Sequence record: OZ035790.1
From: Felixounavirus LF110P4
Length of the DNA: 64,000 nucleotides
Direction: 5' to 3' (one strand)
The notes beneath the pieces are model-generated. The model saw nothing but the letters and a program-made list of their open reading frames with translations. It did no database searches and had not been told where the DNA came from. Below are positions 11,286 to 29,063 of this stretch, piece by piece (the first letter of the stretch is position 1; each line of letters opens with the position of its first letter). Both the position numbers and the translations under genes were made by a program.

Positions 11286-11286
<1 letters not shown>
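10646..11286 (+). CDS. tail assembly chaperone -1 frameshift fusion product (GT-like)
   Basis: -1 frame is open from 10966 to 11286 and overlaps the end of the 10646 ORF; T_TTT_TTC slippery site at 11002-11008; canonical position upstream of tape measure. Confidence 0.5.
11002..11008 (+). other. candidate -1 programmed ribosomal frameshift slippery heptamer (T TTT TTC)
   Basis: zero-frame codons agT TTT TTC; -1 frame continues into the ORF annotated 11047..11286. Confidence 0.5.
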
Positions 11287-19305
<8,019 letters not shown>

Positions 19306-26204: not shown

Positions 26205-26504
26205 TTAATCTGCCAACCTTAAATTGAAATTAACACCAAATTTTTCACATACTTCCAACATATACTCAAGGGAGACGTTACCAGTGAGATGGATTATGTT
26301 GGATACACGAGCCTGAGAGATACCACAAATTTTAGCAACTTGCTCTTGAGAAAGACCTCTGGATTTAATCTCTCTCTTAAAACGATGTGCAACGAAGTCT
26401 CTCATTTCGTCTACATCCATTGGACAAATATAACTCTCCATTTCAGCCTCTCTATCAGCCTCCCAATCATCTTGTGGGGCATAAGGGTCAAAAACCTCAT
26501 TCAT
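26205..26504 (-). CDS. XRE-type helix-turn-helix protein
   Basis: HTH-like segment GLSQEQVAKICGISQARVSNIIH; likely ATG at 26504 with ggaag RBS (track ORF extends to 26534). Confidence 0.5.
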   Translation of the reverse strand: MNEVFDPYAPQDDWEADREAEMESYICPMDVDEMRDFVAHRFKREIKSRGLSQEQVAKICGISQARVSNIIHLTGNVSLEYMLEVCEKFGVNFNLRLAD

Positions 26505-26709
26505 CTTTCTTCTTCCGTTTGCGTGAAGTGTCAATTAATGAATCTATGTTTGTAGCCCTAACCTTTTCACGTTCATCGTTAAGATAATCATCAAGAGCCT
26601 TTTCAATCTGTGAATCATCTTGACAGATGACTGTAAAGACTGTAAAGCCGTCTGTATCGTCAATTATCTTACCATAACCGCTTCTGGGATGTAACTTTTT
26701 AAGAGCCAT
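26497..26709 (-). CDS. hypothetical protein
   Basis: 70 aa ORF with basic C-terminus. Confidence 0.35.
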   Translation of the reverse strand: MALKKLHPRSGYGKIIDDTDGFTVFTVICQDDSQIEKALDDYLNDEREKVRATNIDSLIDTSRKRKKKDE

Positions 26710-27189: not shown

Positions 27190-27592
27190 AGATTTTTTAT
27201 AAGGCTACTGCCATCCTTCCATACCCTACCTTACCACACCTAACCATACCTAACCAAACTACACCATACAATACCTTATTAAAAGACCCTCTTAAAGACC
27301 TTTTAAAAAGGTAAGTCTCATTTTAATGTAGCTCCGATTAACTACCCACACCTTACCTCACCTGACCTGACCTGACCCTACCTAGCATTACCGTGCCACA
27401 CCTCACTTAAAAACCCTCTTAGAAGACTCTTAAGTGATGTAATCGGATTTTAATGTAGCTCCGATTAACTACCCGCACTTTACCAAACCTCACCCTACCC
27501 TACCAGACCTTACCTAACCGCGCCGTACCTCATTAAAAGACCCTCTTAAAGACCTTTTAAAAAGGAGCCTCCGAAGAGGCTACCTAGTCAAC
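27190..27592. repeat. composite non-coding repeat region A (NNACC pentamer tracts, conserved hairpins, 33-nt and 37-nt direct repeats)
   Basis: no ORF; exact 33-nt repeat at 27279-27311 and 27533-27565; 37-nt block 27403-27439 recurs at 28969-29005; pentamer tracts 27211-27276, 27344-27402, 27471-27531. Confidence 0.8.
27560..27587 (-). terminator. intrinsic terminator after the 27593 gene
   Basis: minus-strand agcctc-ttcg-gaggct hairpin followed by TTTTT. Confidence 0.6.
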
Positions 27593-28033
27593 TTAGAAAG
27601 GTTTTCTACGTTGCTTGTTAATGTTAGCTTTCATAGCAGCTAAATGGTTTTGCTGTTCAATTAGTCGTGAACGTTCTTGATGGCTAAGTACCATAGTGTT
27701 CACATTCTCAATCGCTTGAGTGGCTTGCTTTAAAGCACGACCAATCTTACCAGACATTTTACGTTTTGCAATAGTTGCTTGATGCTTAGGTTCAACCACA
27801 CGATAACCAACACCCATTGAAGCAACCAGATAAATCTTCTCTTCTTTAAGAAGCTTCTCAATAAACTTCTCAAGTCGATTTAAGCGTGTAAGCGCATAAG
27901 CCTTCATTTCATCTTCGTACTTAACAATGTCACCTTGATAAGTTGGCTTCACAATACCTAAGAAGGTGTCCATCTCAGAATGTGATACAGTGTCACCGTA
28001 ACTAAACTTTGCTGCTAATGCTTTTGTATTCAT
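27593..28033 (-). CDS. hypothetical protein (repeat-flanked cassette gene 2)
   Basis: 146 aa, basic C-terminus; start is 2 nt from upstream stop. Confidence 0.5.
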   Translation of the reverse strand: MNTKALAAKFSYGDTVSHSEMDTFLGIVKPTYQGDIVKYEDEMKAYALTRLNRLEKFIEKLLKEEKIYLVASMGVGYRVVEPKHQATIAKRKMSGKIGRALKQATQAIENVNTMVLSHQERSRLIEQQNHLAAMKANINKQRRKPF

Positions 28034-28035
28034 AA

Positions 28036-28641
<606 letters not shown>

Positions 28642-28654
28642 TTAGTTGATTGTT

Positions 28655-29005
28655 AAGTTGTTTGTAAAGAACCCTCAATAGAAGACTCTTTAGAAACTTG
28701 GTAGATTTTTAACGTGGCTACTACCATCCACCCACACTTTGCCATACCTCACCGCGCCTTACCCGACCTGGCTGCACCTTGCCTTGCCAAACATCACTTA
28801 AAAACCCTATGAGATACCCTATCGAGTATAATTTAAAGGCTCTTAAGTGATGTAAGTCTCATTTTAATGTAGCTGAGACTAACTACCCATACCCTACTTT
28901 ACCTTGCCGTACCGTACTTTACCCGACCACACCGGACAATACTTAACCCTACCTCACCCGACCGGACATCACTTAAAAACCCTCTTAGAAGACTCTTAAG
29001 TGATG
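28655..29005. repeat. composite non-coding repeat region B (NNACC pentamer tracts plus hairpins with 10-bp arms)
   Basis: hairpins with catcacttaa / ttaagtgatg arms at 28792-28852 and 28967-29005; stem-loop 28855-28880; pentamer tracts 28724-28790 and 28884-28966. Confidence 0.8.
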
Positions 29006-29035: not shown

Positions 29036-29063
29036 AGTATACTCACCAAATTTTCTATGTCAA
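29036..29063 (-). promoter_or_regulatory. sigma70-like promoter (TTGACA-16-TATACT) driving the repeat-containing leader and cassette
   Basis: minus-strand ttgaca (29063-29058) and tatact (29041-29036), immediately downstream of the ligase stop. Confidence 0.45.

What the first reader, a model, noticed from the sequence alone, without database searches (positions are those of the whole stretch)
27211..27276. Phase-locked NNACC pentanucleotide tracts (GGTNN on the transcribed strand)
At 27211-27276 the + strand reads cc-atcc-ttcc-atacc-ctacc-ttacc-acacc-taacc-atacc-taacc... with ACC recurring every 5 nt for more than 12 units. Similar tracts occur at 27344-27402, 27471-27531, 28724-28790 and 28884-28966. 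On the minus strand, which is the transcribed strand for the neighbouring genes, this gives (GGTNN)n with many AGGU/GGUGA Shine-Dalgarno-like motifs and GG/GGG runs. A 5-bp period is half a helical turn, which fits a protein-binding array on DNA, a ribosome/30S or RNA-binding-protein sponge in RNA, or G-rich structure formation. I do not recognise this as a known phage element.
Basis: seen in the sequence. Interest (0 to 1): 0.75.

Follow-up and report, generated by a model that had tools for sequence, protein, structure and literature searches.

The report
VIPR guide-RNA arrays in a phage
The five-base repeats are real, and they are the guide RNAs of a VIPR system, a phage-encoded RNA-guided DNA-silencing system first described in 2026 preprints, which this Felix O1-like phage appears to aim at a satellite element that parasitises it.

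Summary
Five tracts carry ACC/CC every 5 nt on the + strand (GGYNN on the gene strand). They score 8-9 of 12 phased hits against at most 4 in shuffles, and occur nowhere else in the 64 kb.

They are not a sponge, a G-quadruplex or a DNA-binding array. They are the five vrRNAs of a type II VIPR locus (bioRxiv 10.64898/2026.04.26.720920 and .720927).
- The 195-aa ORF between the two arrays is 97.4% identical over its full length to PDB 36pp "SUSP1 Vipr protein".
- The adjacent 146-aa ORF is 99% identical to the SUSP1 gene next to vipr (the vap position).
- Each tract has 11-16 YNNGG units followed by a 34-nt tail that forms a covarying pseudoknot.
- Across 542 units from 11 related phages, GGY is conserved and NN is close to random.

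Applying the published one-nucleotide-skip rule, four of the five guides match 91-95% of their NN positions in a roughly 10-12 kb E. coli satellite island. Matches with skips of 0, 2 or 3 stay at or below 77%, and permuted guides never reach the observed score (0 of 500). The fifth guide has no credible target.

Verdict: a real and remarkable element, but already known. What remains open is minor: the leader hairpins, one chimeric tail and the orphan guide.

The parts
29036..29063 (-). Sigma-70-type promoter TTGACA-16-TATACT upstream of the first guide array
   Evidence: The consensus scan scores it 11/12. The sequence TTGACATAGAAAATTTGGTGAGTATACT is identical in SUSP1 upstream of its vrRNA1. 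Transcription of SUSP1 vrRNA1 is reported by sRNA-seq in 10.64898/2026.04.26.720920. Promoter activity was not tested for this window.
28967..29005 (-). Leader hairpin before guide U1 (CATCACTTAAGAGTCTTC-TAA-GAGGGTTTTTAAGTGATG)
   Evidence: Inverted repeat I5. RNAfold gives about 19 bp and -20 kcal/mol, with G.U pairs that exist only on this strand as RNA. Its function is not established.
28855..28966 (-). vrRNA U1: 16 YNNGG units (28966..28887) plus a 34-nt pseudoknot tail (28888..28855)
   Evidence: Parsed. The tail is the type GGGTAGTT-AGTCTCA-GCTACATTAAAA-TGAGACT. Under the 1-nt-skip rule it matches 30/32 NN positions inside a satellite CDS.
28792..28852 (-). Leader element before guide U2 (longer, with arms CATCACTTAAGAGCC / GGTTTTTAAGTGATG)
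   Evidence: Inverted repeat I8 and the sequence.
28700..28791 (-). vrRNA U2: 12 YNNGG units plus the pseudoknot tail GGGTGGAT-GGTAG-TAGCCACGTTAAAAAT-CTACC. It sits in the same position and has the same tail type as SUSP1 vrRNA1
   Evidence: No credible target was found.
28036..28623 (-). vipr gene (195 aa, a RAMP-family guide-binding protein)
   Evidence: phmmer against PDB 36pp_D 'SUSP1 Vipr protein' gives E 1.5e-127 and 97.4% identity over residues 1-195. The residues the cryo-EM preprint names as functional are all present: H17, K33, R39, E71, M72, K82, G87, K88, R138, C173, D177, W178 and R179. There are no Pfam or NCBIfam hits.
27593..28033 (-). vap1-like accessory gene (146 aa)
   Evidence: 144/146 identical to the SUSP1 gene immediately downstream of vipr (AVU07_agp038). 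That this gene is 'vap1' is inferred from its position in the locus described by the preprint.
27566..27581 (-). Intrinsic-terminator-like hairpin after vap (AGCCTCTTCGGAGGCT followed by a T run)
   Evidence: Phage ASO1B annotates two rho-independent terminators in the corresponding intergenic regions, within the guide arrays, not immediately after vap.
27441..27532 (-). vrRNA D1: 11-12 units plus the pseudoknot tail (arms AATCGGA / TCCGATT)
   Evidence: It matches 21/22 NN positions upstream of the satellite 'transposase' CDS (L141 7203-7234) and 20/22 in L127.
27314..27405 (-). vrRNA D2: 11-12 units plus a tail whose hairpin arms are not complementary (AATCGGA / TGAGACT)
   Evidence: this tail is unique among the 44 compared. 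It matches 20/22 NN positions (22/24 counting the 5' unit) inside a 107-aa satellite CDS.
   Evidence: It matches 21/22 NN positions about 30 bp upstream of the 184-aa satellite CDS.
27279..27311 (-). Leader hairpin before D3. Equivalent elements lie at 27533-27565 before D1 and about 27404-27439 before D2

Best explanation
The tracts are the variable regions of five VIPR guide RNAs (vrRNAs). They flank a vipr-vap gene pair in a Felix O1-like phage, with two guides upstream and three downstream.

Mechanism as reported for the 97%-identical SUSP1 system, and inferred here:
- Each guide is transcribed from the minus strand.
- Vipr protomers bind one per 5-nt repeat and form a helical filament capped by the 3' pseudoknot.
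- The GGY bases are flipped out and held by the protein.
- The two variable bases of each repeat pair with double-stranded DNA that carries the same dinucleotides separated by one skipped base.
- The resulting R-loop triplex represses transcription.

Shown here by computation: the guides of this phage are complementary, under exactly that code, to genes and upstream regions of an E. coli chromosomal satellite island. That island carries tail genes related to this phage's own. The locus therefore most likely silences a parasitic satellite during infection.
For: Protein evidence:
- The vipr ORF is 97.4% identical over its full length to PDB 36pp 'SUSP1 Vipr protein', and all named RNA- and DNA-contact residues are kept.
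- The accessory ORF is 99% identical to its SUSP1 counterpart.
- The promoter, leader hairpin and tail types match SUSP1.

Repeat evidence:
- The five guides have 11-16 YNNGG units.
- Across 542 units from 44 vrRNAs in 11 phages, position 1 is G in 83%, position 2 is G in 99%, and position 3 is a pyrimidine in 100%. Positions 4 and 5 carry only 0.13-0.14 bits.
- In the tail pseudoknot and hairpin, 9 of 11 pairs show compensatory changes. 88.6% of cells are paired, against 28-42% when the partners are slid.

Target evidence:
- U1 matches 30/32, D1 21/22, D2 20/22 and D3 21/22 NN positions in the satellite islands under the 1-nt skip. The best scores with skips 0, 2 or 3 are at or below 0.77, and no permuted guide reaches the observed score (0 of 500).
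- Of 37 unique guides from 11 phages, 26 reach 80% under skip 1, against 1, 0 and 1 under skips 0, 2 and 3.
- The skipped bases of the U1 target fall on codon position 3.
- No guide matches the window itself.

Satellite and wider evidence:
- The satellite baseplate protein is 66% identical, and its tape measure 30% identical, to proteins encoded in this window.
- One satellite locus carries WP_096972665-667, whose accession numbers directly follow those of the satellite proteins the preprint cites.
- In IMG/VR, 29 of 49 loci with degenerate GGYNN tracts found by DNA pattern alone encode a Vipr homologue on the same strand, against 0 of 71 other hits.
- Mechanism and expression data come from 10.64898/2026.04.26.720920 and 10.64898/2026.04.26.720927.
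Against: - There are no expression, binding or silencing data for this particular phage. Everything mechanistic is transferred from SUSP1.
- Guide U2 has no credible target.
- The hairpin arms of the D2 tail are not complementary, so that guide may be impaired.
- The skipped bases of the D2 target fall on codon position 2, not the wobble position.
- For 10-11-unit guides the 80% threshold lies close to the chance maximum, so each individual call relies on the skip and permutation controls.
- I derived the tail structure from these same sequences, and only three or four tail types exist, so the independent covariation events are few.
- Both source papers are preprints.
Confidence: 0.95

Rival explanations
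1. The minus-strand RNA is a decoy or sponge that titrates 30S subunits or an RNA-binding protein through its many AGGU/GGUGA Shine-Dalgarno-like motifs.
For: The tracts are G-rich and contain AGGT/GGTGA strings. They are transcribed-strand repeats lying after a strong promoter.
Against: A sponge would not need hypervariable NN positions, and it would not match a satellite under one specific gapped code. Position 3 is always a pyrimidine and position 1 tolerates A or T, which is not a Shine-Dalgarno pattern. The adjacent protein is the solved guide-binding Vipr.
Confidence: 0.02
2. The G-rich non-template strand forms two-tetrad G-quadruplexes or persistent R-loops. These would act as a replication origin, a recombination hotspot or a transcription block, by analogy with the pentameric repeats of immunoglobulin switch regions.
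For: GG runs spaced by 3 nt lie downstream of a strong promoter. Copy number varies among relatives.
Against: G-quadruplex or R-loop formation does not require a conserved pyrimidine at position 3. It does not require a covarying 3' pseudoknot. It does not predict co-orientation with a Vipr gene in 29 of 29 unrelated loci, and it does not explain the target matches.
Confidence: 0.01
3. The tracts are a double-stranded DNA array of binding sites spaced half a helical turn apart, for a phage or host DNA-binding protein.
For: A 5-bp period equals half a turn. An HTH regulator gene lies nearby at 26205-26534.
Against: The tracts are strictly strand-specific relative to vipr in every locus examined. 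The leader hairpins contain G.U pairs and the tail forms a pseudoknot, both of which make sense only as RNA. Vipr co-purifies with these RNAs in SUSP1 (10.64898/2026.04.26.720920).
Confidence: 0.01
4. The locus is a genuine VIPR system, but its natural role in this phage is not anti-satellite. It might instead regulate the phage's own genes or host genes, or the arrays might be decaying remnants.
For: U2 has no target and D2 has a broken tail. Only about half of the related phage records found by DNA carry vipr: 132 records by tblastn against 257 by megablast.
Against: Four of the five guides hit the satellite at 91-95%, and none hits the 64-kb window above chance. Vipr is under strong conservation, at 97-100% identity across more than 110 phage records.
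Confidence: 0.05

Closest known systems
SUSP1 VIPR system (type II VIPR; Escherichia phage SUSP1, Ounavirinae), bioRxiv 10.64898/2026.04.26.720920 and 10.64898/2026.04.26.720927; PDB 36pp
   Same: Vipr is 97.4% identical and Vap 99% identical. The promoter, leader hairpin and three tail types are the same, as are the GGY/NN repeat grammar and the 9-16-unit range. The genomic position is the same (between the DNA ligase gene and a small-gene cluster), and so is the satellite target family.
   Different: This phage has two upstream guides where SUSP1 has one. All five NN guide sequences differ from those of SUSP1. One tail (D2) is chimeric. No experimental data exist for this phage.
Class 1 CRISPR-Cas effector backbones (Cas7/Csm3/Cmr4 filaments on crRNA)
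   Same: A RAMP-fold protein oligomerises along a guide RNA at a fixed register, and a thumb flips bases out periodically. The guide is capped by a conserved structured handle (as described in the two preprints).
   Different: The period is 5 nt with three bases sequestered and two read, rather than 6 nt with five read. The target is gapped by one base. The locus has no CRISPR repeats, no Cas1/Cas2 adaptation genes and no nuclease, and it is phage-encoded. No Pfam or NCBIfam Cas model matches the protein.
TRAP (trp RNA-binding attenuation protein) binding sites in Bacillus. I considered this from memory before finding the VIPR papers
   Same: About 11 triplets are repeated with a 5-nt period, each bound by one subunit of a protein oligomer.
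   Different: TRAP reads GAG/UAG, forms a closed ring, regulates attenuation and does not guide DNA recognition. There is no sequence or fold relationship, and this comparison was not tested further.

Membership tests
VIPR system (SUSP1 clade, type II) | A vipr gene encoding a small (~20 kDa) RAMP-family protein. The clade is defined by the authors as >90% identity to SUSP1 Vipr | tested here: met
   195 aa, 97.4% identical over the full length to PDB 36pp_D 'SUSP1 Vipr protein', E 1.5e-127. tblastn against SUSP1 and SUSP2 also gives 97.4%.
VIPR system (SUSP1 clade, type II) | Conservation of the residues that hold GGY and the DNA strands: H17, D177, R138, W178, E71, M72, R179, C173, K33, R39, K82, G87 and K88 | tested here: met
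   All 13 are present at the same positions. The 'T175' named in the preprint is V both here and in the deposited SUSP1 chain.
VIPR system (SUSP1 clade, type II) | vrRNAs made of 9-16 YNNGG repeats with conserved GGY and hypervariable NN | tested here: met
   The five tracts have 16, 12, 11-12, 11-12 and 11-12 units. Across 542 units, the GGY positions carry 1.2-1.9 bits and the NN positions 0.13-0.14 bits.
VIPR system (SUSP1 clade, type II) | A conserved 3' tail that forms a hairpin and a pseudoknot | tested here: met
   In the 34-nt tail, the pseudoknot helix has 3 of 4 pairs covarying and the hairpin 6 of 7. 88.6% of cells are paired, against 28-42% for slid controls. Exception: in the D2 tail only 4 of 7 hairpin pairs can form.
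VIPR system (SUSP1 clade, type II) | Minimal locus: vipr plus one vap gene, flanked by intergenic vrRNAs on the same strand, with no CRISPR array or cas genes | tested here: met
   The ORF map, the SUSP1 locus map, Vap at 99% identity, and no Rfam or tRNA hits.
VIPR system (SUSP1 clade, type II) | Guides match natural DNA targets under the 1-nt-skip code and not under other spacings | tested here: met
   Four of five guides match at 0.91-0.95 with skip 1, against 0.77 or less with skips 0, 2 and 3. No permuted guide reaches the observed score (0 of 500). U2 is unresolved.
VIPR system (SUSP1 clade, type II) | vrRNAs are expressed as ~100-nt RNAs and co-purify with Vipr; the complex represses transcription of targets | not testable with these tools
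   Shown for SUSP1 only (10.64898/2026.04.26.720920). It needs sRNA-seq, pull-down and reporter assays with this phage.
CRISPR-Cas class 1 | A CRISPR repeat-spacer array, and Cas protein families detectable by profile | tested here: not met
   No repeat-spacer array was found; the repeats have a 5-nt period or a ~127-nt unit. There are no Pfam or NCBIfam hits for the two proteins.

The most novel reading that the evidence does not exclude
The roughly 19-bp leader hairpins that precede every guide may be host RNase III-type processing sites. They are rich in G.U pairs and are not discussed in the accessible text of the preprints. Together with the conserved tails, they could also serve as recombination modules through which co-infecting phages swap, duplicate and re-tail guide cassettes. 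That would be a primitive way of updating the guide repertoire without an adaptation machine. The chimeric D2 tail fits this reading, as does the same guide body appearing with different tails in related phages. The orphan guide U2 could then point to a second competitor that has not yet been sequenced.
Probability: 0.3. Interest if true: 0.45.

Novelty: already known. Interest (0 to 1): 0.3.

Why it matters
VIPR is a newly described way of recognising DNA with RNA: a non-contiguous two-of-five code read by a RAMP protein that may predate CRISPR. This window shows the system in a common Felix O1-like coliphage. Vipr at 90% identity or more is present in 117 deposited phage genomes, all annotated as 'hypothetical protein'.

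With guides that were not demonstrably part of the original analysis, the window independently reproduces the published target code and the anti-satellite targeting. For annotation, it means that GGYNN tracts next to a ~190-aa unannotated ORF can be labelled as vrRNA/vipr. For the scan itself, it shows that a reader working from sequence alone can pick out this class of element.

Tried and rejected
- Rfam at gathering threshold and a tRNA scan of the whole window found nothing.
- Pfam, PHROGs and NCBIfam gave no functional family for the two proteins.
- Before the literature hit I considered several readings: a TRAP-like ring-protein site, a CsrA/Hfq sponge, a two-tetrad G-quadruplex, an R-loop origin like the Ig switch pentamers, primase or SF3-helicase iterons, and a TerS pac site. 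I dropped them all once the Vipr identity and the target code were established.
- A first literature search on Felixounavirus, repeats and intergenic regions led only to the PhageMaP paper on Bas63, which says nothing about these repeats.
- Supplementary tables of the VIPR preprint are not held, so its target list could not be compared directly.
- Exact-pattern scans for a target of guide U2 gave 0 hits in IMG/VR and 2 hits in GTDB genomes (an Acidobacteriota MAG and a Faecousia MAG), which is about the number expected by chance. U2's best score in the satellite loci (0.79-0.82) lies in a host gene, cmoB, and within the permutation null.
- Pfam, PHROGs and NCBIfam gave no function for the satellite genes that are targeted.
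- I did not run a structure prediction or fold search, because a solved structure of a 97%-identical protein exists.

Full report
**1. The observation**

I scanned the whole window for a motif recurring every 5 nt over 12 units. ACC reached 8-9 of 12 and CC reached 9-11 of 12 in exactly five places: about 27.19-27.29k, 27.32-27.42k, 27.45-27.56k, 28.71-28.81k and 28.87-28.98k. Twenty dinucleotide-preserving shuffles of the 64 kb never exceeded 4 for ACC or 5 for CC, and no other part of the window scored. All neighbouring ORFs lie on the minus strand, where the tracts read GGYNN.

**2. Anatomy**

The tracts are parts of a repeat unit of about 127 nt. On the minus strand each unit has three parts:
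- a leader hairpin;
- 11-16 pentamers;
- a 34-nt tail.

There are two units between the DNA ligase gene and a 195-aa ORF. They lie directly downstream of a near-consensus promoter, TTGACA-16-TATACT at 29063..29036. Three more units follow a 146-aa ORF and its terminator-like hairpin at 27581..27566. Rfam at gathering threshold and a tRNA scan found nothing. Neither protein has a Pfam or NCBIfam family; both fall in PHROGs of unknown function.

**3. The genome and its relatives**

The region is 90-94% identical to many Felixounavirus genomes (Felix O1-like myoviruses of E. coli, Salmonella and Shigella). In these records the two ORFs are 'hypothetical proteins', and the tracts are at most labelled 'repeat_region'. 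The lengths of the two intergenic regions differ among relatives, so the number of units varies.

**4. The lead from other phages**

Many hits are plain microsatellites. Dozens of unrelated contigs, however, carry arrays of degenerate GGYNN tracts of about 10-20 units with conserved flanks. [quoted passage not shown] A cryo-EM companion followed (10.64898/2026.04.26.720927).

**5. What the preprints report**

VIPR systems consist of a small RAMP-family protein (Vipr), an accessory protein (Vap) and vrRNAs. The vrRNAs are made of 9-16 YNNGG repeats with conserved GGY and hypervariable NN, followed by a conserved 3' tail that forms a pseudoknot in the SUSP1 clade.

One Vipr protomer binds each repeat. 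The GGY bases are flipped out and held by the protein. The NN bases pair with double-stranded DNA in which the matching dinucleotides are separated by one skipped base. The complex forms an R-loop triplex and represses transcription.

The model phage is Escherichia phage SUSP1 (Ounavirinae). It has one vrRNA upstream and three downstream of vipr-vap. Most of its clade's guides target a satellite element in E. coli genomes.

**6. Membership tests on this window**

*Protein.* The 195-aa ORF (28036-28623, minus strand) matches PDB 36pp chain D, 'SUSP1 Vipr protein', over its full length with E 1.5e-127 and 97.4% identity. The residues the cryo-EM paper names as contacting G1, G2, Y3, the skipped base and the non-target strand are all present: H17, K33, R39, E71, M72, K82, G87, K88, R138, C173, D177, W178 and R179. 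tblastn finds the protein at 90% identity or more in 117 phage records, including SUSP1 and SUSP2 at 97.4%. The 146-aa ORF is 144/146 identical to the SUSP1 gene next to vipr.

*Locus.* The SUSP1 intergenic regions show the same promoter sequence, the same leader hairpin and the same three tail types.

*Repeats.* Parsed in the authors' YNNGG register, the five guides have 16, 12, 11-12, 11-12 and 11-12 units. I collected 44 vrRNAs (542 units) from this window, SUSP1 and nine Felixounavirus genomes. Position 1 is G in 83%, position 2 is G in 99%, and position 3 is a pyrimidine in 100% (T 92%, C 8%). Positions 4 and 5 carry only 0.13-0.14 bits of information.

*Tail.* An ungapped alignment of 16 distinct tails supports an H-type pseudoknot. 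Columns 3-6 (the end of the repeat tract) pair with columns 17-20 in the hairpin loop, and three of these four pairs covary (GTAG/CTAC, GTGG/CCAC, AAGG/CCTT). In the hairpin, columns 9-15 pair with 28-34, and six of seven pairs covary. 88.6% of cells are paired, against 28-42% when the partners are slid by 1-3 columns. Two caveats apply: I derived the structure from these same sequences, and only three or four tail types exist.

**7. Targets of this phage's own guides**

A blastn search of the locus against 5,426 complete E. coli genomes found a vrRNA-tail-like sequence in 62 of them. In each case examined it lies inside an island of about 10-12 kb. The island carries a large serine recombinase, a baseplate protein, a tape measure protein, a gene annotated 'transposase', often an HNH endonuclease, several small hypothetical genes and a non-coding stretch of about 2 kb. 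It is inserted at several different chromosomal sites. One copy carries WP_096972665-667, whose accession numbers directly follow the satellite proteins cited in the preprint, WP_096972663 and WP_096972664.

I converted each guide to the pattern NN-x-NN-x... and scored every position on both strands of eleven such loci. The best matches were:

| Guide | NN match | Location | Context |
|---|---|---|---|
| U1 | 30/32 | L129 11223-11269 | inside a 184-aa CDS, coding sense; every skipped base on codon position 3 |
| D3 | 20/22, then 21/22 | L129 11455-11486; L141 9473-9504 | 30 bp upstream of the same CDS |
| D2 | 20/22 (22/24 counting the 5' unit) | L129 9857-9888 | inside a 107-aa CDS; skipped bases on codon position 2 |
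| D1 | 20/22, then 21/22 | L127 9132-9163; L141 7203-7234 | about 50 bp upstream of the 'transposase' CDS |

With 0, 2 or 3 skipped bases the best scores for these four guides were at or below 0.77. In 500 permutations of the unit order, none reached the observed score for U1, D1, D2 or D3. The window itself contains no match above chance.

Of 37 unique guides from the 11 phages, 26 reach 80% under the 1-nt skip. Only 1, 0 and 1 do so under skips 0, 2 and 3.

Guide U2 has no credible target. Its best score lies in a flanking host gene and within the permutation null. Exact-pattern scans gave no hit in IMG/VR and two chance-level hits in GTDB genomes.

The satellite baseplate protein is 66% identical, and its tape measure 30% identical, to proteins encoded in this window (13535-14311 and 11286-13508). 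This fits a satellite that exploits this kind of phage. The satellites carry one vrRNA with its own promoter and terminator but no detectable vipr. The functions of the targeted satellite genes remain unknown.

**8. Generality**

I built an HMM from 120 Vipr homologues and searched all ORFs of the 120 IMG/VR loci that the DNA pattern alone had retrieved.
- 49 loci have degenerate tracts (at least 8 units with at least 5 different NN).
- 29 of those 49 encode a Vipr homologue (E at or below 1e-8).
- That ORF is on the same strand as the tracts, with one stray opposite-strand tract in one locus, and is usually less than 100 nt away.
- None of the 71 loci without degenerate tracts encodes one.

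Several of the remaining 20 loci are short or cut at a contig end.

**9. Rival readings**

The other readings considered were a ribosome or protein sponge, G-quadruplex or R-loop formation, and a duplex-DNA binding array. None of them explains all four of the following:
- the invariant pyrimidine at position 3;
- the near-random NN positions;
- the RNA-only features (G.U pairs, the pseudoknot);
- the gapped complementarity to a satellite.

**10. Verdict**

The finding is real and belongs to a remarkable class of element. It is nonetheless a member of the already described SUSP1 VIPR clade (type II), so it is not new. My confidence is 0.95 for the identification and for the transferred mechanism. 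It is lower for the biological role in this particular phage, which rests on computed target matches only.

What remains open here is minor:
- the function of the leader hairpins, which fold into about 19 bp with G.U pairs at roughly -20 kcal/mol;
- the chimeric tail of D2;
- evidence that guides and tails are shuffled among related phages;
- the orphan guide U2.

Noticed in passing
window 28967-29005, 28792-28852, 27533-27565, ~27404-27439, 27279-27311 (minus strand): Every guide is preceded by a leader hairpin. One type is CATCACTTAAGAGTCTTC-TAA-GAGGGTTTTTAAGTGATG (about 19 bp, roughly -20 kcal/mol). The other is CCTTTTTAAAAGGTCTTTAAGAGGGTCTTTTAA. The stems contain G.U pairs, so they make sense only as RNA on this strand. 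I found no description of them in the accessible text of the VIPR preprints. They could be RNase III-type processing sites that separate the guides in an array; this is untested.
   Followed up: partly
window 27314-27347 (tail of guide D2): The two hairpin arms of this tail come from different tail types (AATCGGA / TGAGACT), so only 4 of 7 pairs can form. It is the only such tail among the 44 compared. The identical guide in phage Andreotti has an intact tail. A related guide body is joined to a third tail type in ASO1B, E9 and BPS15Q2. This suggests that recombination shuffles guides and tails.
   Followed up: partly
window 28700-28791 (guide U2): This is the only guide without a credible target in the satellite loci, IMG/VR or GTDB genomes. 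The guide at the same position in phage CL1 differs at several NN positions. The target may be a satellite variant or another element not yet sampled.
   Followed up: partly
L125-L131, L140-L143 (E. coli chromosomes); e.g. L129 816-13853: The satellite islands sit at five or more different chromosomal sites: wrbA/ymdF, tonB/yciI, within a DUF72 gene near yecD/yecN, lafU/dinB and lpxL/mdtG. Each carries one vrRNA with its own promoter and terminator (L129 ~12970-13100) but no vipr, so it would have to borrow the helper phage's Vipr. Several copies are disrupted by IS elements.
   Followed up: partly
L129 11900-12960: The ~2-kb non-coding part of the satellite contains several motifs such as GACCTCTTAAACGACCTTT and AAGACTTTTAAGAGACTTT. 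These resemble the reverse complement of the phage leader-hairpin core (GGTCTTTAAGAGGGTC). In the window the exact 9-mer TAAGAGGGT is almost confined to the VIPR locus: 4 of its 5 exact hits lie there. It may be a shared protein-binding site; this was not analysed.
   Followed up: no
IMG/VR loci L007, L008, L013, L021, L024, L028, L030, L067, L078, L081, L087, L090, L094, L105, L112: At least 15 viral contigs share an almost invariant block, GGTTAGGTTAGGTAAGGTTAGGTTAGGTAAGG. It is preceded by contig-specific iteron-like direct repeats (ATGTATAC..., CAATGGAC..., TGGATAC...). NN diversity is low and the loci contain no Vipr ORF. This looks like a different, unexplained element.
   Followed up: no
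IMG/VR loci L036 and L097: Uninterrupted GGYNN tracts of 41-82 units lie next to Vipr homologues. That is far longer than a single 9-16-unit guide. They may be the 'staggered/overlapping arrays' mentioned in the preprint.
   Followed up: no
phage collection as a whole: The region's DNA matches 257 phage records, but only 132 records give a tblastn hit to Vipr (117 at 90% identity or more). The locus therefore appears to be present in some Felix O1-like phages and absent from others.
   Followed up: no
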